Source: Bacteroidota bacterium
GTDB lineage: Bacteria > Bacteroidota > Bacteroidia > NS11-12g > UBA955
DNA: 44,227 nt
Assembly: GCA_046314695.1 (NCBI GenBank)
Contig: JBKDBI010000254.1
Span: 1 to 44,227 of the forward strand
Direction: 5' to 3'
Below, one piece after another: positions 16,960 to 32,922 of the stretch. The translations under genes and the position numbers were made by a program. Under the pieces are notes generated by a model, which saw nothing but the letters and a program-made list of their open reading frames with translations, had not been told where the DNA came from and made no database searches. The stretch's first letter is position 1, and every line of letters starts with the position of its first letter.

Positions 16960-17300
16960 TATTCACGCTCCAAAAGTAGCAATGATATTTTCAAATAATC
17001 CAATGGAGTGTCTTCACCTTCAAAGCTTGTGATATGTGCAAGCTCAACAACATCCCTGATAGGATGATACGGAGGATTAAAGGCAACCTCTGTGTATCTG
17101 TCTGTGGTTAATTCAGTTTGAAAAAACTCTACCGCTTTTTCATGTGATTCAAACGCCTGTGCTGTAATTGAGGTATAAATATCATCATATTTTACCCATA
17201 CGTCAAAAGACCTTCCTTGCAAACTAAAATCTACTTCTGAAAGAATGTATTTTTTAAACCTTAATTGTGCTGGATTTTCGATGTTCATTCTCTTTTTCAT
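16959..17300 (-). CDS. hypothetical protein, AT-rich insert between tape measure and gpM
   Basis: ORF track; coupled on both sides. Lambda has no counterpart at this position. Confidence 0.5.
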   Translation of the reverse strand: MKKRMNIENPAQLRFKKYILSEVDFSLQGRSFDVWVKYDDIYTSITAQAFESHEKAVEFFQTELTTDRYTEVAFNPPYHPIRDVVELAHITSFEGEDTPLDYLKISLLLLERE

Positions 17301-19675
17301 TATGCGAATCCCCTTTGTAACATTCCGCCTTGACGGCTTTCCGTCTTAAGGACTTGTCTAACCTTCATTTCAATCATTTCACTAATTGCCTTCCCTGCTT
17401 CTGCTAAGCCTTGATTATCGCCCTTGCCTCCGCCTTGCGTGTTAACCGTCACGTTGTTAATGACTGTAATACCACCACCGCTCCCACCGCTTGGCATGGC
17501 GTGGCTAGGGATGATGTTCCCTGCGGATCGTGGCACAAACATTTCACGCCCTGCCTCACCCACCATGTAAGGCTGATTCGCATTAACCGCTCCACCGCCT
17601 GCACGGTGTCCAACGGCTCCAGCCCCCACCGCACCACCAGCTTCAACATGACCAGCACTCACCGCCCCACCTTTTAAAAAGCCTCCTGTAACGCTTGTGA
17701 CAATCCCAGTCAATAATTGCAAGGCATAAACCTTAATCAATTGGACGGCAATTTGACGCAATAGCCCCACCATGATTTCCTTGAATGAAGATGTGCCGTT
17801 TAACATATAGGTTATTGTATTGTCAAACGCTGAACGTAAAGCGTTACGAATGCCCTCGCTTGTTTCTTTCGCACGGTCTGCCATTTGTTGCGTTTGGTCT
17901 GCATAATCCTTTAACGCTTGTTCACGAGTGGCTTGTTCCTGTGCCTGTTGTTTTTGATCAGCGTTTGCATTGCTATCTTTTAGCAAGTCACGTTTTCTTT
18001 GCTCAATATCCAACTCACGCTGTTTAAGCTCAAGGGCTTTCTCACCACCTGCAAGGAACGCATCACGCAAGGCTTTCTGTTTCGCCTCTTCAATGTTTGC
18101 TTCTTCCATAGCCTGCTTTAAGCTTACACTAAGTTCAAGCTGTTTCTTTTTGGATTCTGCGTCCTGCTCACGTTTAACGATGCTTTGAGCCAGTAGTTCA
18201 AGCTCACGCTTGCCCTTGCCTAAGTAATCGCCCATAAGCTCGTTGTAACGCCCTAAGCCCTCGTTTTGCTTAAGCTGTGCCTCGTAGGCTTTAATGCCAC
18301 CGCTAGACAAGGCTTGAATCGCTTTATCCATGCCTTGCACTTCAAGCATGGCATCTCTAGCTTTTTCTTTTAAGCCCTTCAACGCATCGGCGTAACGCTC
18401 GGCTTCTTTTTGGGCTTCGGATTTAGCTTCTTTCTTTGCTTTTTTCGCTTTGGGTTGAAGGGTTTCCGTCCCCCCTCTTTCGTCTTTGGGAATGTTGGTA
18501 TTAACGCTCCCTGTTTTGATACTGCCAAACGTATGACCAACCCCTGCCATAATGTTTTTGCCAAAACCTTTGTAATTAGCAGAAAACCCTTTTACCGCAT
18601 CTTTTCTAAGCCCTTTTGAGCCTTGTACAATATCATCTAAAAGCCCTGTAGGAGCCTTAAACTTGCCCCCTGCTATTTTTCCTGCAAATTGATTGTAAAG
18701 ACGCAATCCTTCCCTAAGTAGGCGTGTCATGTTCTCCATTGCCGCAGAGTAAAGAAACTGCATACCGTTAAACACAAGCCCCACGGCGTTCCCGATAACT
18801 TTAAACGCATCAATTCCTACAATAATAACCCTTGAAATTATGGGGGCTAAGTGACCAATGGAGTTACCTATTCTCTGAATAAATCGGATTAAAGTTCCTG
18901 ACAAATCGGTTGCCTTGTCAATATCTGCAACAAACGAGCCAAAGGCAATATCTGCCTGTGACTTAACCCGCCCGAATGTTAAAGGCATTTTAGAAAACTC
19001 TTTATTGACCTCTTCTGTTTTTTTGATCAAAACATCAAAAACATCCTTAGATAATAATTTTTGATCTAGCATCATTTGTCGCAACTGACCACGTGTAACA
19101 CCTAATCCGTCTTGTATTGTGTTTAAAAGTTGAGGCAAGCTATCGCTAATACTATTAAACTCTTCCGCCTGAATCTTAACCCCTGTCATTGCTTGAGCAA
19201 ATTGCATCAAGCCATTTTTTTGCTGTTCGCTTGTTGCTCCTGATATAATTCCTAGCTTTGAAACCGTATCAGTTAATTTAAGCATTTCGGCGTTCGTCGC
19301 ACCGACGCTATTTTTTGACCCTGCTACTCGTTGGAATACCATTACAACATCATCTAAAGCAACCCCTGTGCCAATAGCGACTTTCTTCAAGGCTTCAAAG
19401 TTCTGCGTGCCTAGTGCAATGCCTTTGCTTGCGTTGATCGTGCGTGCCTCAAGCATACGCATCTTGTCGGCGGTGTCGGCTAGCTGTTTAGCAATCGCTC
19501 CAATGCCAAGCGTTGCCAGTGTCGCACCAAGCATCTTAAAGGAACTAGCGACCTTATCGCCTGCCTTTGCCGTACCGTCTGCCGTGTTCTTAAGCTTCCT
19601 TAAGTCGCCTTCTGTTTTAGCGACTCCTTCAGCTTTGGTCTCCACTATGATTTTAGGATTGTCCGCCATCATCAT
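17300..19675 (-). CDS. tail tape measure protein
   Basis: 791 aa, largely helical and Ala/Lys/Gln-rich with a Gly-rich C-terminal part. It lies directly downstream of the G/GT chaperone pair. Confidence 0.9.
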   Translation of the reverse strand: MMMADNPKIIVETKAEGVAKTEGDLRKLKNTADGTAKAGDKVASSFKMLGATLATLGIGAIAKQLADTADKMRMLEARTINASKGIALGTQNFEALKKVAIGTGVALDDVVMVFQRVAGSKNSVGATNAEMLKLTDTVSKLGIISGATSEQQKNGLMQFAQAMTGVKIQAEEFNSISDSLPQLLNTIQDGLGVTRGQLRQMMLDQKLLSKDVFDVLIKKTEEVNKEFSKMPLTFGRVKSQADIAFGSFVADIDKATDLSGTLIRFIQRIGNSIGHLAPIISRVIIVGIDAFKVIGNAVGLVFNGMQFLYSAAMENMTRLLREGLRLYNQFAGKIAGGKFKAPTGLLDDIVQGSKGLRKDAVKGFSANYKGFGKNIMAGVGHTFGSIKTGSVNTNIPKDERGGTETLQPKAKKAKKEAKSEAQKEAERYADALKGLKEKARDAMLEVQGMDKAIQALSSGGIKAYEAQLKQNEGLGRYNELMGDYLGKGKRELELLAQSIVKREQDAESKKKQLELSVSLKQAMEEANIEEAKQKALRDAFLAGGEKALELKQRELDIEQRKRDLLKDSNANADQKQQAQEQATREQALKDYADQTQQMADRAKETSEGIRNALRSAFDNTITYMLNGTSSFKEIMVGLLRQIAVQLIKVYALQLLTGIVTSVTGGFLKGGAVSAGHVEAGGAVGAGAVGHRAGGGAVNANQPYMVGEAGREMFVPRSAGNIIPSHAMPSGGSGGGITVINNVTVNTQGGGKGDNQGLAEAGKAISEMIEMKVRQVLKTESRQGGMLQRGFA

Positions 19676-20060
19676 GTTGTGAAGCCTCCTGCGTCATCAT
19701 TAAACGGTCTATCAACATTATAAGCTTAAGCTCGTCTCGGTTGTATGCCACCCCAAACAAGCGATGCCACGCCTCAAGCTCCGTCCACTTCAAGGGGCTT
19801 GCTCCACCCATGCCATAATCCTTGCCGTGAAATGAAATCTCGTCGTAAACACTGAATAAGTACCCATGACGGCATTTTGGAGGCACTAGGGCAGGGCTAG
19901 AGGGGTTGTTGTGGTGGATTGTCTGCCATACGGTACACTTGCCACCCTTTGGGACTTTCCGCATACCGCATAGCCATTTGGTGTAAGCCGTTATTTCTTC
20001 TTCTTGGTTGGCTTGGCTGGCTGTTCCTCTTTCACCACTGGAGGGGGAACCGTAAAAAAA
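19653..20060 (-). CDS. -1 frame extension of the tail assembly chaperone (gpT analogue; G-T fusion of about 241 aa)
   Basis: Hand translation of the -1 frame from the last T of the T7 run (20054) is open for 30 codons. It then runs straight into the ATG of track ORF 19653..19964 with no stop. Confidence 0.7.
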   Translation of the reverse strand, partial: FFYGSPSSGERGTASQANQEEEITAYTKWLCGMRKVPKGGKCTVWQTIHHNNPSSPALVPPKCRHGYLFSVYDEISFHGKDYGMGGASPLKWTELEAWHRLFGVAYNRDELKLIMLIDRLMMTQEASQHDDGGQS

Positions 20061-20377
20061 TTGCTTTTTTCCGTAAAGAACTCAACGATCTGATTGCCAA
20101 TAAAAGCGGAGTTCTCGTCTTCAAGCAGTCCTTGAAATCCCTCGGGGGTGAACTCGTAATCACCAATCACGCCGTCTTGCAATATCTCAAAAAAGGTTTC
20201 TGCGATGTCTTGAGATGTGTTCAAACCACCACTTGCCACCTTGAGACTAAACTTCTCGTAAGCTTCAACATCTGAACGTGGCTTAAATGTGATTTTCACA
20301 TCTTCAATAGGTTCACCATACACTGGATCAACCGCTTGAAAGACGGCTTGCTTTGCTTTAATATCCCCTAAACGCAT
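19991..20377 (-). CDS. tail assembly chaperone (gpG analogue)
   Basis: 128-aa acidic protein between the tail tube and tape measure genes. It contains a T7 slippery run near its 3' end. Confidence 0.75.
   Translation of the reverse strand: MRLGDIKAKQAVFQAVDPVYGEPIEDVKITFKPRSDVEAYEKFSLKVASGGLNTSQDIAETFFEILQDGVIGDYEFTPEGFQGLLEDENSAFIGNQIVEFFTEKSNFFTVPPPVVKEEQPAKPTKKKK
20054..20060 (-). other. slippery heptamer T TTT TTT for the G/GT -1 programmed frameshift
   Basis: The zero frame reads aaT TTT TTT acg. This fits the X XXY YYZ rule, and the -1 frame downstream is open. Confidence 0.7.
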
Positions 20378-30448: not shown

Positions 30449-30841
30449 CTAAGCCCCTTTGCTAAGTGAGTAATACTTTAACGCTTTGTTGTCATCATAA
30501 CACGCCATGATGCGTGTCGTGGGAGCCAATAGGCTTATGCCCTTTGCCCTCAATTCCCCCTGAATGAATGCCCTTTGAATCGCTGGGGATGCCTTGCCCT
30601 GCTTGATGAGAGCATGGGGACGTTCAAGGGTTTCAATGTATTCCAGTAGCAGATTGATGGTTTCTTTGAAATAGTCCTCGTTTTGCCCTACGAATCCGCT
30701 AGGCATACACACATGATTGACCACTTCGTGAATCCGTTTGATTGTGGGGTTGTCAAGCTCTGTGCCTGTCTGCACACAAAGGCTTAAATGGCTTAAGGAG
30801 CCTACCAATCGACTAAACAGAACGTCGTCACGAATCGGCAT
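30449..30841 (-). CDS. hypothetical protein
   Basis: ORF track; coupled to terS (ATTATTGA junction). Confidence 0.45.
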   Translation of the reverse strand: MPIRDDVLFSRLVGSLSHLSLCVQTGTELDNPTIKRIHEVVNHVCMPSGFVGQNEDYFKETINLLLEYIETLERPHALIKQGKASPAIQRAFIQGELRAKGISLLAPTTRIMACYDDNKALKYYSLSKGA

Positions 30842-31269
30842 TATTGACCCTCCAGCTTATCAAGTCCCTTGCCTAGTGCGATGATGTTGTCAAAGTCCAT
30901 GTTTTTAATTTGCTCGACAAGGGCTTCATTAACCATGTGAGTGGTTTCTTGCTTGATCTCGTTTTTGTCGGTTTGACCTAGCCATTGTTTACCTAGCCAT
31001 ATCTGCATTGTGACGTTGCCAGCCTCTGCTGACGTGTACTGCATACGACGGAGGGAAGTTTTACCTTGCCCTGAATATCTTTTATATAGCTCCGAAAAAT
31101 TGACACCACCACGCTCTTTGATATTGCGTTCTAAGGTGTCCTCATCCATATCCATAACACTGCAACATTCAACCTGCGTGCAGTTGATACGAAGCATAGA
31201 GAGGAGCATCTCCCACTCCTTATCGGTTAAATCTTTGCGTGGTCGTCCGACTGGTCTTTTCTCGATCAT
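30841..31269 (-). CDS. terS: terminase small subunit
   Basis: GRPRK..T.KEWE.LL..L...CT..E...VM....DTLERNI ... GNVTMQIWLGKQWLGQTD is the typical HTH-type small terminase pattern. Confidence 0.75.
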   Translation of the reverse strand: MIEKRPVGRPRKDLTDKEWEMLLSMLRINCTQVECCSVMDMDEDTLERNIKERGGVNFSELYKRYSGQGKTSLRRMQYTSAEAGNVTMQIWLGKQWLGQTDKNEIKQETTHMVNEALVEQIKNMDFDNIIALGKGLDKLEGQ

Positions 31270-31762
31270 TTAGCGGTCTCCTCTAGTTTTTTGTAAGTAA
31301 AACAAAATGTCGGTCTATTTGCTGAATGTGTTTTTTTAAATGACTTATCTCTATGCCCGGCTTGAATACCTTTTGAGGTTAATATCCAACATGGCGATTT
31401 TTTCAAAGCATTTGATAATGCGGGTGTCCCTGTTGTGATATTTATCTTATGCGTTTTTGAATAATAGTCTGCCACAAAGTTTAATAGTTTAGTTCCAATT
31501 CCAATACCTTGAAAATCAGGAATAATCACTAAACGATGTATTCTTTTTTGACCAACATATCCAAAACTTTGCATAATGGCACAAAATCCTATAATTTGAT
31601 TTTGATATACGGCTATAAATATATCTGCCACTTTGTTTAATTTATGGTCTAAATAATGAAACTTTTTAAAGGTTTCCCATATTTCAGACCCCCATTTTTT
31701 TTCAATTTGAAAAACATCGAAGTGTATTTTTGCTCTAGTTGGTTTTTCTGCATAAAAAAAAA
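31266..31762 (-). CDS. GNAT acyltransferase domain, readable only as a -1 frame continuation of the upstream ATPase gene
   Basis: Motif A is RLVIIPDFQGIGIGTKLL. The track ORF starts at a GTG (31631) inside the fold. Hand translation shows the same frame is open up to 31778 and encodes the missing N-terminal GNAT strands (IHFDVFQIEKKWGSEIWETFKKFHYLDHKL). This stretch has no ATG. Confidence 0.8.
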
Positions 31763-32350
31763 CTGATTCAGATCGGTATCATAAACCCAATCAGGTTCAA
31801 GCCATTCTTTTACATCGTGATGACACGTTATCGCTATAAATTGCTTGTTTTCTCGTTTAATGGATTTTGAAATAGCTAAACACGTGGTTTGAGCCACTGT
31901 TCTATCTACAACGCTGGTAAACTCATCAAATGCAAACCGTTGTTTTTCTTCAAGCAAAGACTTTGCTAAATCAACACGCATTTTTTCACCGTTAGAAAGA
32001 ACATGATAAGGCTTTAACCAACTAGGTGGACTTGCGAATCCCACCGCACTAAACATATTGGTTATTTTTTGAACATTACAATTTTTAGGCATTTCATCAA
32101 TAATGGCATTTTCACCATATTGTAAGTTTACTACAATATCATCTCCAAAACATTCTTTGGCTATTGTGGTTTTACCTGTCCCTGAACGTCCAACGATTAA
32201 ACCGATGTTCCAATCTTTTCCTTCAATATCAATACTCCCTGTAAAGTTTTGATTTAAGTTTGAATCATCCATTGAAAACATATCTAAAACAGATTGTGTT
32301 TTAAAGCTTTTTTTTAATTCTGTTTTTTTTAGTATGTTGAAACTTGGCAT
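31649..32350 (-). CDS. ABC-type ATPase (zero-frame product, 233 aa)
   Basis: Walker A GRSGTGKTT, ABC signature LSNGEKMRVDLA, Walker B/D-loop FAFDEFTSVVD and H-loop ITCHHD are all present. Confidence 0.85.
   Translation of the reverse strand: MPSFNILKKTELKKSFKTQSVLDMFSMDDSNLNQNFTGSIDIEGKDWNIGLIVGRSGTGKTTIAKECFGDDIVVNLQYGENAIIDEMPKNCNVQKITNMFSAVGFASPPSWLKPYHVLSNGEKMRVDLAKSLLEEKQRFAFDEFTSVVDRTVAQTTCLAISKSIKRENKQFIAITCHHDVKEWLEPDWVYDTDLNQFFFMQKNQLEQKYTSMFFKLKKNGGLKYGKPLKSFII
31754..31762 (-). other. T9 homopolymer / slippery site joining the ATPase and GNAT frames
   Basis: The zero frame reads cag TTT TTT TTT atg. A -1 shift on T TTT TTT reads TAT GCA GAA... in the GNAT frame, and T10 would fuse the frames genetically. 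Confidence 0.6.
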
Positions 32351-32865
32351 GAATAACCCTTTTGTGTCAAATACTCATAAGTATTTTCTTGTTCAATTTC
32401 ATTTTCACATTTTATAATAATTTGATACTTTGTTTCTGAATCGGAAAGATCTGTTTTATCTTCATTTTCATTTTGAAATACATCATCTAAAGCTTTTAAA
32501 TCAAACCCTAACAACTCTAAGTCAAACCCCACGTCATCAAGCTGTGCTAGTTCAAGCTTTAAAAGCTCATCGTCCCACCCTGCGTTTAGTGCGAGCTGAT
32601 TATCCGCTAGGACGTATGCTTTGCGTTGCGTGTCCGTCAAGTGGTCAACCAATACCGTAGGGACTTCTTTTAAGCCTAGTTTTTTAGAGGCTAGCAAGCG
32701 TCCATGTCCTGCGATGACGTTGTTTTTATCGTCTATGATGATTGGGTTAATAAAGCCAAACTCTCGAATGCTTGAGGCAATCTGCGTCACCTGTTCGTCG
32801 CTGTGAGTACGGGCGTTGTTGGCATAAGGGATAAGCTTATCAACTGCCACCTGTTGGTATTTCAT
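32329..32865 (-). CDS. ParB/Srx-like N-terminal domain protein
   Basis: VDKLIPYANNARTHSDEQ...IASSI.EFGF.NPIIID..N.VIAGHGRLLASKKLGL.EVP...V..L.D.Q.KAYVLADNQLA..AGWDDELL. The ATG at 32865 is preceded by GGGGAGGGG. Confidence 0.85.
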   Translation of the reverse strand: MKYQQVAVDKLIPYANNARTHSDEQVTQIASSIREFGFINPIIIDDKNNVIAGHGRLLASKKLGLKEVPTVLVDHLTDTQRKAYVLADNQLALNAGWDDELLKLELAQLDDVGFDLELLGFDLKALDDVFQNENEDKTDLSDSETKYQIIIKCENEIEQENTYEYLTQKGYSCQVSTY

Positions 32866-32922
32866 GCGACCCCTCCCCACATTAGAGTTACTACACACTT
32901 GCATGATGACACATTTAGGTGC

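What the first reader, a model, noticed from the sequence alone, without database searches (positions are those of the whole stretch)
31754..31762. T9 run splits the ATPase and GNAT frames: -1 recoding, phase variation or pseudogenisation
Seen: the ATPase frame reads cag TTT TTT TTT atg and continues for 34 low-complexity codons to a stop. The -1 frame from the last T reads YAEKPTRAKIHFDVFQIEKKWGSEIWETFKKFHYLDHKLNK. It contains no stop and no ATG and flows into the GNAT ORF, whose track start is an internal GTG. The -1 frame is closed only 6 codons upstream of the run. T TTT TTT obeys the X XXY YYZ rule and is the same heptamer type as this phage's own G/GT site at 20054-20060. Inference: either programmed -1 frameshifting gives two products (a 233-aa ATPase and an ATPase-GNAT fusion of about 361 aa), or this is a homopolymer length switch (T10 fuses the frames), or a sequencing/assembly indel.
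Basis: seen in the sequence. Interest (0 to 1): 0.7.

Follow-up and report, generated by a model that had tools for sequence, protein, structure and literature searches.

The report
Conserved T9 recoding site, phage ATPase–GNAT
A run of nine T's sits exactly at the boundary between the ATPase and acetyltransferase halves of a phage gene. The run and the one-base frame break are conserved in more than a hundred diverged phages, so this is a programmed slippage site that should yield a short and a long protein, not an error or a dead gene.

Summary
On the minus strand a T9 run (31754-31762) ends the ATPase domain of a 233-aa ORF. The GNAT domain continues in the -1 frame with no usable start codon. 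A one-base shift at the run gives a 361-aa protein that aligns end to end with thousands of single-ORF ATPase-GNAT homologues.

It is not an artefact or a pseudogene:
- Every independent assembly of this phage and its variants has T9.
- 119 distinct metagenomic relatives (ATPase parts 53-100% identical) have T9 with GNAT in -1, and the GNAT frame is intact in 109 of 113.
- All three Phe codons of the run are always TTT, although TTC is common at other conserved Phe sites.
- Relatives with T10 are in frame.
- A large sister clade keeps an in-frame A10 with a -1-frame stop right after it.
- T5/T7 sister clades have GNAT in -1 plus a covarying stem-loop. The T9 clade has no such structure.

Best reading: programmed recoding makes ATPase alone and ATPase-GNAT. 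The most likely mechanism is RNA-polymerase slippage (+1 U, as in Shigella mxiE). Ribosomal -1 slippage on U_UUU_UUU is the main rival. No transcript or protein data exist. I found no paper describing recoding in this family, so this is a new member of a known kind.

The parts
32329..32904 (-). ParB N-terminal-domain gene, directly upstream. It overlaps the ATPase start by 22 nt.
   Evidence: Pfam ParB_N 1.2e-09 and phrog_620 1.5e-58. The same neighbour is found in relatives.
31649..32350 (-). Zero-frame ORF of 233 aa: ABC-type ATPase domain (codons 1-199) plus a 34-codon out-of-frame tail, ending at TAG 31649-31651. This is the product of standard decoding.
   Evidence: Pfam ABC_tran. Among close variants the variable sites fall 11/6/69 on codon positions 1/2/3.
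31754..31762 (-). T9 slippage site, read TTT TTT TTT (Phe197-199) in the ATPase frame. It encodes the last beta-strand of the ATPase domain.
   Evidence: T9 is invariant in 12 related assemblies and in 119 distinct relatives. TTT is used 60/60 at the run against 64% TTT at other Phe codons. AF2 strand 196-199.
31779..31781 (-). TGA that closes the -1 (GNAT) frame upstream. Any shift must occur between here and the conserved Arg206 codon.
   Evidence: Read directly. In 75 of 119 relatives the -1 frame opens only 6 codons before the end of the run.
31649..31754 (-). Overlap region. In the -1 frame it encodes the interdomain linker and GNAT beta1/alpha1 (residues 200-234). These include near-invariant R206 and invariant W225, F228, H232, Y233 and L234. 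The zero-frame stop lies inside the H-Y-L-D codons.
   Evidence: Alignments A1 and A2. AF2 model. No ATG/GTG/TTG in this stretch. 83 of 114 relatives also have none.
31266..31754 (-). GNAT part of the trans-frame product (162 codons plus stop), entered by re-reading the last T of the run. The full product is 32350..31754 joined to 31754..31266, 361 aa.
   Evidence: Pfam Acetyltransf_1/7/10. phrog_11143 matches residues 6-353 to profile positions 3-348 of 357, E = 4e-92. About 47-52% identical over 98% of its length to single-ORF homologues.
30841..31269 (-). Next gene downstream (142 aa, no family match). Its ATG overlaps the GNAT stop (ATGA). It is context only, not part of the recoding site.

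Best explanation
The T9 run is a conserved programmed recoding site at the junction of a two-domain phage gene. The domains are an ABC-type ATPase and a GNAT acyltransferase.

Standard expression stops 34 codons after the run and gives the ATPase alone (233 aa). A fraction of expression events shifts by one base at the run and gives the full ATPase-GNAT enzyme (361 aa, junction ..DLNQFFFYAEKPTR..).

The most likely mechanism is slippage of the host RNA polymerase on the nine A:U base pairs of the hybrid. This adds one extra U to part of the transcripts, as in Shigella mxiE. Ribosomal -1 slippage on the in-phase U_UUU_UUU may add to it.

Shown here:
- the anatomy of the site;
- the need for a shift at or next to the run to make a family-typical GNAT;
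- deep conservation of the run and of the frame break;
- absence of RNA stimulators.

Inferred:
- that two proteins are actually made;
- the level at which the slip occurs;
- the purpose. A plausible one is a fixed ratio of short and long subunits in a dimeric ABC ATPase, as with dnaX tau/gamma.
For: (1) A shift at the run restores a full family member. phrog_11143 matches end to end. There are thousands of ~355-aa single-ORF homologues. Invariant GNAT residues lie in the overlap, upstream of any start codon.

(2) It is not an error.
- The identical T9 ORF appears in 5 independent assemblies.
- Variants at 5-12% or more nucleotide divergence all have T9.
- In viral contigs 30 of 31 hits are T9 with GNAT in -1. 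In metagenomes 111 of about 117 evaluable hits are.
- That makes 119 distinct sequences. The -1 frame stays open for 154-184 codons in 109 of 113, with GNAT motif A in 108.

(3) The selection acts on nucleotides. TTT is used 60/60 at the run, while nine other conserved Phe columns all use some TTC.

(4) The wider family behaves the same way.
- T10 relatives are in frame.
- The A10 clade keeps AAA/CAA 65/65 at the run, whereas other conserved Lys columns use 3-34 AAG codons. It also keeps a -1-frame TAG/TAA directly after the run. This is a dnaX-like design.

(5) Arguments for the transcriptional level.
- The conserved length is 9-10, not 7.
- The T9 clade has no downstream structure (mean MFE z = +0.10; window z = 0.16) and no upstream hairpin.
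- T5/T7 sister clades have a covarying stem 6-7 nt downstream of the run.
- Runs of 9 are depleted in this genome: 1 observed against 5.1 expected.
- Efficient RNAP slippage at 9 A/T, mxiE and Thermus dnaX are documented (PMC5009743, PMC1088944).
Against: - There are no transcript or protein data, so production of the fusion is inferred from conservation only.
- The run contains an in-phase X_XXY_YYZ heptamer.
- The same phage appears to use T_TTT_TTT for its G/GT frameshift.
- The sister clades with T5/T7 plus a stem-loop shift in the same -1 direction. That is what a common ribosomal mechanism would predict.
- The host is unknown: TerL is at most 38% identical to any cultured phage, and there are no tRNAs. 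Some bacteria tolerate 9-nt runs without evident slippage (PMC1088944).
- One lineage (L010/L011) has lost GNAT motif A yet keeps T9, so the fusion is dispensable in some settings.
Confidence: 0.55

Rival explanations
1. Programmed ribosomal -1 frameshifting. Ribosomes on a faithful U9 mRNA slip back one base on U_UUU_UUU (Phe-Phe), as at the phage's G/GT site, and give the same 361-aa fusion.
For: - The heptamer is in phase.
- The same motif occurs at the G/GT site of this phage.
- T7 and T5 sister clades have in-phase U_UUU_UUU or U_UUU at the homologous Phe codon, GNAT in the -1 frame, and a covarying downstream stem.
- The shift direction is -1 in all split clades.
Against: - The T9 clade has no downstream or upstream stimulatory structure.
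- Nine T's rather than seven are conserved, although the first Phe is not a family-wide residue.
- In-frame relatives keep 10-nt runs in three different phases: TTT TTT TTT T, TCT TTT TTT TTT and CAA AAA AAA AAT. This suggests that length rather than phase is what is kept.
Confidence: 0.3
2. DNA-level phase variation. The tract flips between T9 (GNAT off) and T10 (GNAT on) by replication slippage, so phage populations are mixtures and each genome makes one product.
For: - T10 fuses the frames, and both T9 and T10 exist in the family.
- 9-10-nt homopolymers are mutable (PMC3711429).
Against: - Tract length is fixed within lineages. All 12 assemblies of the window's lineage and its variants are T9. 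All five assemblies of the P0002 lineage are T10.
- T9 makes up about 95% of this clade, across 119 distinct sequences.
- The in-frame A10 clade shows A10 in 65 of 66, with no off-length members.
- GNAT stays intact in lineages that would be permanently 'off'.
Confidence: 0.07
3. Two separate genes. GNAT is translated on its own from a non-canonical or internal start, for example the ATA used in the NCBI 153-aa call or the GTG at 31631, possibly coupled to termination of the ATPase ORF.
For: - Gene callers report separate products of 102, 121 and 153 aa.
- The zero-frame stop lies inside the GNAT frame, which could allow termination-reinitiation.
Against: - There is no canonical start before conserved W225 in the window or in 83 of 114 relatives, and none at a conserved position in the rest.
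- The GTG start would remove GNAT beta1/alpha1 and the invariant W225-L234 motif.
- Homology in the -1 frame runs right up to the T run (FFFY/FFFC matches the fused relatives).
Confidence: 0.05
4. Sequencing or assembly indel, or a recent inactivating mutation (pseudogene).
For: Homopolymers are error-prone. A few relatives do show extra frame breaks that look like errors or compensations (L121, L132, L138).
Against: The same T9 and -1 arrangement appears in independent ENA, JGI, Logan and NCBI assemblies and in 119 distinct sequences. GNAT is under purifying selection.
Confidence: 0.02

Closest known systems
Shigella flexneri mxiE (transcriptional slippage on T9)
   Same: A run of nine T's lies in the overlap of two ORFs. 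Insertion of one non-templated U in part of the mRNAs fuses them, so the longer, functional protein depends on slippage. No RNA stimulator is needed (PMC1088944, PMC5009743).
   Different: mxiE is a plasmid-borne AraC-type regulator in one bacterial genus and has been shown experimentally. Here the gene is a phage ABC-ATPase-GNAT gene, the site is conserved across a large, diverged metagenomic clade, and nothing has been measured.
dnaX tau/gamma: E. coli -1 frameshift versus Thermus thermophilus A9 slippage
   Same: One gene yields a full-length product and a C-terminally truncated one. Homologous genes reach this either by a ribosomal -1 shift with a stem-loop or by polymerase slippage on a 9-10-nt run. 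Stops lie directly after the run in the shifted frame. The A10 clade shows this (QKKK then stop). The T5/T7 clades with a stem-loop contrast with the T9 clade in the same way.
   Different: In dnaX the zero frame encodes the long form. In the window's clade the zero frame encodes the short form. The protein is unrelated to clamp-loader subunits.
Phage tail assembly chaperone G/GT -1 frameshift
   Same: It is a conserved phage recoding event that gives a short and an extended protein in a set ratio. This phage's own G/GT site uses the same T_TTT_TTT motif.
   Different: G/GT uses seven T's, lies in the tail module, and is ribosomal. The ATPase-GNAT site has nine T's, lies next to the ParB-like gene upstream of the terminase, and joins two enzymatic domains.
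ABC-ATPase + GNAT phage proteins predicted to acylate a DNA base (Iyer et al. 2013, as summarised in PMC7824862)
   Same: The domain architecture is the same. The family includes Tenacibaculum phage pT24, which the window protein hits (H35/H36). A ParB-domain neighbour is typical.
   Different: In the text I could read, that work describes the protein family and does not mention recoding. The 2013 paper itself was not available. More distant members (SL25, Pmp13, Porphyromonas and Arthrobacter phages) are plain fusions with no homopolymer.
Citrobacter rodentium tssM and IS-element transposases (transcriptional realignment at A/T runs)
   Same: Slippage on a homopolymer produces two length variants, or fuses orfA and orfB (PMC4256274 title and abstract; PMC1088944).
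   Different: tssM is a rescue of a strain-specific interruption. Here the interrupted state is the conserved, dominant state of a whole clade.

Membership tests
Programmed transcriptional slippage site (mxiE / Thermus dnaX type) | Uninterrupted A or T run of about 9 or more in the coding strand | tested here: met
   T9 at 31754-31762(-).
Programmed transcriptional slippage site (mxiE / Thermus dnaX type) | Addition or loss of one nucleotide at the run connects two frames that both carry coding sequence | tested here: met
   A T10 reading gives a 361-aa protein that matches phrog_11143 end to end. Natural T10 relatives are in frame.
Programmed transcriptional slippage site (mxiE / Thermus dnaX type) | The run is conserved at nucleotide level beyond what the protein requires | tested here: met
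   TTT 60/60 at the run against 64% elsewhere. 119 distinct T9 sequences. The A10 clade shows the same suppression.
Programmed transcriptional slippage site (mxiE / Thermus dnaX type) | mRNA population heterogeneous in run length (U9, U10, ...) | not testable with these tools
   No transcript data are available. This needs cDNA amplicon or direct RNA sequencing.
-1 programmed ribosomal frameshift cassette | In-phase X_XXY_YYZ heptamer | tested here: met
   (TT)T TTT TTT in the ATPase frame.
-1 programmed ribosomal frameshift cassette | Stimulatory element: a stem-loop or pseudoknot 5-9 nt downstream, or an SD-like sequence upstream | tested here: not met
   Window downstream fold z = 0.16. T9 clade mean z = +0.10 over 119 sequences. 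No conserved upstream hairpin. By contrast the T5/T7 clades have a covarying stem. A stimulator is common but not obligatory, so this weakens the ribosomal mechanism without excluding it.
-1 programmed ribosomal frameshift cassette | Trans-frame protein made from a homogeneous mRNA | not testable with these tools
   This needs a reporter assay or mass spectrometry together with RNA sequencing. Both mechanisms give the same peptide, ..NQFFFYAEKPTR..
Phase-variable contingency locus | Tract length polymorphic among very close relatives or within populations | tested here: not met
   All 12 assemblies of the window lineage and its variants are T9. T10 lineages are consistently T10. Read-level data are not available.
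ABC-ATPase-GNAT phage family (phrog_11143; predicted DNA-base acyl modification) | N-terminal ABC-type nucleotide-binding domain with Walker A, signature-like motif and Walker B | tested here: met
   Pfam ABC_tran. GRSGTGKT, LSNGEK and FDEFTS are conserved. Foldseek hits to ABC NBDs.
ABC-ATPase-GNAT phage family (phrog_11143; predicted DNA-base acyl modification) | C-terminal GNAT fold with the acyl-CoA motif (Q/R-x-x-G-x-G/A), contiguous with the ATPase | tested here: met
   Pfam Acetyltransf_1/7/10. QGIGIG is present. AF2 pLDDT 86.9 and GNAT hits. In the window the two domains are contiguous only after the shift.
ABC-ATPase-GNAT phage family (phrog_11143; predicted DNA-base acyl modification) | Acyl transfer to DNA (the biochemical activity) | not testable with these tools
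   This is a prediction from the literature only (PMC7824862).

The most novel reading that the evidence does not exclude
A widespread phage enzyme family, the ABC-ATPase-GNAT proteins predicted to modify DNA, is obligatorily expressed as two isoforms. To achieve this, different clades have evolved interchangeable recoding devices at one and the same domain junction:
- T5/T7 plus a stem-loop (ribosomal -1 frameshift);
- T9 out of frame (polymerase slippage restores the fusion);
- in-frame T10/A10 with an adjacent shifted-frame stop (slippage truncates).

This would be a phage counterpart of the dnaX tau/gamma story. The short-to-long ratio would set the make-up of a dimeric ATPase that carries one or no GNAT.
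Probability: 0.45. Interest if true: 0.75.

Novelty: new member of a known kind. Interest (0 to 1): 0.66.

Why it matters
1. Annotation. In this phage and in hundreds of related genomes, including Streptococcus, Lactococcus and Oenococcus phages, the locus is annotated as 'ABC transporter' plus a truncated 'hypothetical' or GNAT gene. It should be annotated as one recoded gene.

2. A new recoding case. It adds a large, deeply conserved, non-structural phage gene family to the short list of recoding cases outside tail chaperones, IS elements and dnaX. Natural variants (T7 plus stem, T9, T10, A10) are ready-made controls for separating transcriptional from translational slippage.

3. Function. 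Conservation of a two-product design says something about how this uncharacterised, probably DNA-modifying enzyme works: the ATPase alone and ATPase-GNAT are probably both needed. That gives experimenters a handle on it.

Tried and rejected
- Megablast of the locus against cultured phages and E. coli genomes found nothing. Relatives had to be found through protein and pattern searches.
- Codon-position counts among close variants could not tell which frame is selected inside the 105-nt overlap. Both frames vary there (3/5/9 variable sites on frame-0 codon positions 1/2/3). I relied on distant homology instead.
- The protein-based locus searches returned almost only in-frame members, because split genes score lower. 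Those samples say nothing about the frequency of split forms.
- The genome-contig scan gave one MAG hit that was too short to use, so no host could be named.
- TerL is at most 38% identical to any cultured phage, and there are no tRNAs.
- An intrinsic terminator or a hairpin-assisted slippage signal at the run was considered and not found.
- Iyer et al. 2013 could not be read.
- The GeneTack paper and its held supplements, the PRFect paper and the 2016 recoding review do not mention this family.
- NCBIfam and PDB sequence searches gave only generic ABC and GNAT matches.

Full report
**What is in the window**

The genes lie on the minus strand. The plus-strand A9 at 31754-31762 is a T9 on the coding strand, in the context cag TTT TTT TTT atg.

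- The upstream ORF (31649..32350, 233 aa) has an ABC-type ATPase domain.
- After the run it continues for 34 codons to TAG at 31649-31651.
- The -1 frame is closed by TGA at 31779-31781. It then reads VFFYAEKPTRAKIHFDVFQIEKKWGSEIWETFKKFHYLDHKLNK and stays open to 31266.
- That frame carries a GNAT domain. Its first ATG/GTG/TTG is the GTG at 31631.
- A ParB_N gene lies directly upstream.

So is the side remark that the phage's G/GT site (20054-20060, minus strand) is T_TTT_TTT. Its -1 frame runs into the T ORF just before the tape-measure gene.

**A shift at the run rebuilds a normal family member**

The conceptual 361-aa product (..NQFFF|YAEKPTR..) matches phrog_11143 from end to end (residues 6-353 on profile positions 3-348 of 357, E = 4e-92). 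It is 47-52% identical over about 98% of its length to thousands of single-ORF proteins of about 355 aa that carry ABC_tran and GNAT Pfam domains.

In alignments A1 and A2 the junction is seamless. Near-invariant R206 and invariant W225, F228, H232, Y233 and L234 are encoded in the -1 frame inside the overlap, upstream of any start codon.

An AlphaFold model (pLDDT 86.9, pTM 0.79) places the junction as follows:
- QFFF is the last strand of the ATPase domain.
- Residues 200-211 form the linker.
- GNAT beta1/alpha1 occupy residues 212-231.

Foldseek returns ABC nucleotide-binding domains and GNATs. It also returns tRNA(Met) cytidine acetyltransferase, another ATPase-GNAT protein, at low TM-score.

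**Not an error, not a pseudogene**

- The identical 233-aa ORF occurs in five or more independent assemblies from ENA, JGI and Logan. All have T9.
- Five variant proteins in the same 90% cluster are all 233 aa. The loci fetched for four of them, at 5-12% or more nucleotide divergence, all have T9.
- A DNA pattern anchored on the conserved PDW..T[DN] codons found T9 with GNAT in -1 in 30 of 31 viral contigs. In metagenome contigs it found the same in 111 of about 117 evaluable hits.
- Together these give 119 distinct sequences. For the 20 distinct full-length ATPase parts among the viral contigs, pairwise identity ranges from 53% to 100%.
- The -1 frame stays open for 154-184 codons in 109 of 113 distinct loci. 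GNAT motif A is present in 108.
- In 83 of 114 there is no canonical start codon in the -1 frame before W225. The rest have none at a conserved position.

**Selection on the nucleotides**

In the T9 clade the three run codons are TTT in 60 of 60 cases. All nine other conserved Phe columns use TTC in 2-11 of 20 sequences.

Runs of nine A/T are depleted in this genome. Only this one is present, against 5.1 expected from shuffles. Depletion of slippage-prone 9-nt A/T runs in coding regions has been reported for many bacterial genomes (PMC1088944).

**The wider family**

| Clade | Run at the junction | GNAT frame | Other features |
|---|---|---|---|
| Window clade | T9 | -1 | No RNA structure |
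| T10 lineages (five) | T10: TTT TTT TTT TGC/TAC, TCT TTT TTT TTT | In frame | |
| A10 clade (66 distinct sequences, 43-100% identity) | A10: CAA AAA AAA AAT, in 65 of 66 | In frame | A/T-run codon choice fixed; -1-frame stop right after the run |
| T7 clade and Streptococcus/Lactococcus phages | In-phase U_UUU_UUU, or U_UUU at the homologous Phe codon | -1 | No start codon; zero-frame stop inside the H-Y-L codons; covarying stem downstream |
| More distant members (Pseudoalteromonas SL25, Pasteurella Pmp13, Porphyromonas and Arthrobacter phages) | None | In frame (plain fusion) | |

Oenococcus phage Vinitor-27 shares the split arrangement of the T5 phages. I did not include it in the stem alignment A4.

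Details for the A10 clade:
- The run codons are AAA/CAA in every sequence that has the run, whereas every other conserved Lys column has 3-34 AAG codons.
- The Asn codon after the run is always AAT, and the next codon starts with A. A -1 shift or an extra A therefore hits TAG/TAA at once (QKKK then stop; 64 of 65). This is a dnaX-like layout.

Details for the T5/T7 stem:
- It lies 6-7 nt downstream of the run.
- 69.9% of cells are paired, against 60.3 ± 1.9% in shuffles.
- Six pairs change on both sides.
- The covariation score is 0.210, against 0.092 in shuffles (0 of 500 shuffles reach it) and at most 0.058 for slid registers.

So recoding at this junction is a property of a large subfamily, with several different devices.

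**Which mechanism in the window**

The T9 clade has no stimulatory structure:
- The 70 nt downstream of the run have a mean MFE z of +0.10. Only 4% of sequences are below -2.
- The window itself has z = 0.16.
- The 50 nt upstream show no conserved hairpin, and there is no terminator-like element.

The conserved length is 9-10 nucleotides rather than the seven a ribosomal heptamer needs. The first Phe is not a family-wide residue. In-frame relatives keep 10-nt runs in three different codon phases.

Bacterial RNA polymerase slips efficiently on runs of nine A or T:
- In Shigella mxiE, insertion of an extra U at a run of T's fuses two ORFs.
- In Thermus dnaX, slippage on a 9-nt run makes the tau/gamma pair.
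- E. coli dnaX reaches the same end by a ribosomal -1 shift (PMC5009743, PMC1088944).

The same split between two mechanisms seems to exist here, between the T5/T7-plus-stem clades and the T9 clade. I therefore favour polymerase slippage (+1 U) for the window.

Ribosomal -1 slippage on the in-phase U_UUU_UUU remains a serious rival, for three reasons. The motif is in phase. This phage uses the same motif for G/GT. The shift direction is -1 in all split clades. Both mechanisms give the same protein, so only RNA sequencing can separate them.

**Alternatives with little support**

- DNA-level phase variation is disfavoured because tract length is fixed within lineages.
- Independent initiation of GNAT is disfavoured by the missing starts and by homology that runs right up to the run.

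**What the gene is**

The architecture, an ABC ATPase fused to a GNAT next to a ParB-domain protein, corresponds to a family that Iyer et al. (2013) predicted to add an acyl group to a DNA base. This is summarised in PMC7824862, which names Tenacibaculum phage pT24, one of my hits. Its activity is untested.

Why two isoforms would be needed is inference. ABC ATPases act as dimers, so a set ratio of short and long chains could give complexes with one or no GNAT, as with tau/gamma or G/GT.

**Novelty**

I found no description of recoding in this family in any of the following:
- the 2016 recoding review;
- the GeneTack study and its held supplements;
- the E. coli heptamer survey;
- the PRFect paper;
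- full-text searches.

Current annotations split the locus into an 'ABC transporter' and a truncated GNAT or hypothetical gene. The mechanism class is known, so I rate this as a new member of a known kind. The family-wide pattern of alternative devices is the more interesting part.

**Limits**

- Everything is comparative. No RNA, protein or read-level data were available.
- The host is unknown.
- The pattern searches required a T run, so they do not measure how common run-less relatives are.
- The stem in the T5/T7 clades rests on 13 sequences. Its arms encode conserved Pro-Arg and Glu-Trp codons, which inflates pairing.

Noticed in passing
window 19653-20377 (-), slip site 20054-20060: Canonical tail-chaperone G/GT arrangement. 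T_TTT_TTT lies in the 128-aa G-like ORF. The -1 frame continues through the 103-aa T ORF to the start of the 791-aa tape-measure gene (17300..19675).
   Followed up: yes
L010 and L011 (P0123 lineage), GNAT part of the locus: Two independent samples carry a variant with an internal deletion in GNAT. The acyl-CoA motif is lost and the frame breaks after ..QKRIHR. The T9 run and the 233-aa ATPase ORF are kept. This is a natural GNAT-less form.
   Followed up: partly
L121, L138 (and L132), about 25 codons after the T9 run: These have T9 plus a second indel that brings GNAT back into the ATPase frame. The result is one continuous ORF with about 22 out-of-frame linker residues. L132 shows yet another frame pattern. 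These are either compensatory mutations or homopolymer sequencing errors.
   Followed up: no
L091, just upstream of its A10 run: A member of the A10 clade has an in-frame TAA three codons before the run (..QQLFV*AQKKNRP..), although the tblastn match runs through it in one frame.
   Followed up: no
L025-L104 (A10 clade), codons flanking the run: GAA GGG directly 5' of the A10 run is conserved at nucleotide level (GGG in 58 of 66). The codon after the run is AAT in 64 of 64. The purine-rich GAAGGG might be an SD-like or hybrid-flanking signal.
   Followed up: partly
L001, L003, L265, L266, L257-L264, L351-L352 (alignment A4, columns 14-26 with 56-68): Streptococcus and Lactococcus phages and a T7 metagenomic clade have a covarying stem-loop 6-7 nt downstream of a T5/T7 run at the same ATPase/GNAT junction. 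This is a likely classical -1 frameshift cassette. It is unannotated in phages such as 315.4, phiNIH1.1 and P335.
   Followed up: partly
window 31695-31702 (minus strand GAAAAAAAATGG): A second homopolymer (A8, followed by G5) lies inside the overlap, 52 nt after the T9. It is in phase as A_AAA_AAT in the ATPase frame. It is not conserved in the close variants L010 and L012.
   Followed up: partly
window 31266-31754 (-), gene calls P0126-P0129: Different pipelines call the GNAT product as 102, 121 or 153 aa. The NCBI call starts with Met at an ATA codon. This shows that no convincing start exists.
   Followed up: yes
whole window: Only one A/T run of 9 or more occurs in 44 kb, against 5.1 expected from dinucleotide-preserving shuffles (96 of 100 shuffles have at least one). 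There are no tRNA genes. The large terminase is at most 38% identical to any cultured phage, so the host is unknown.
   Followed up: partly
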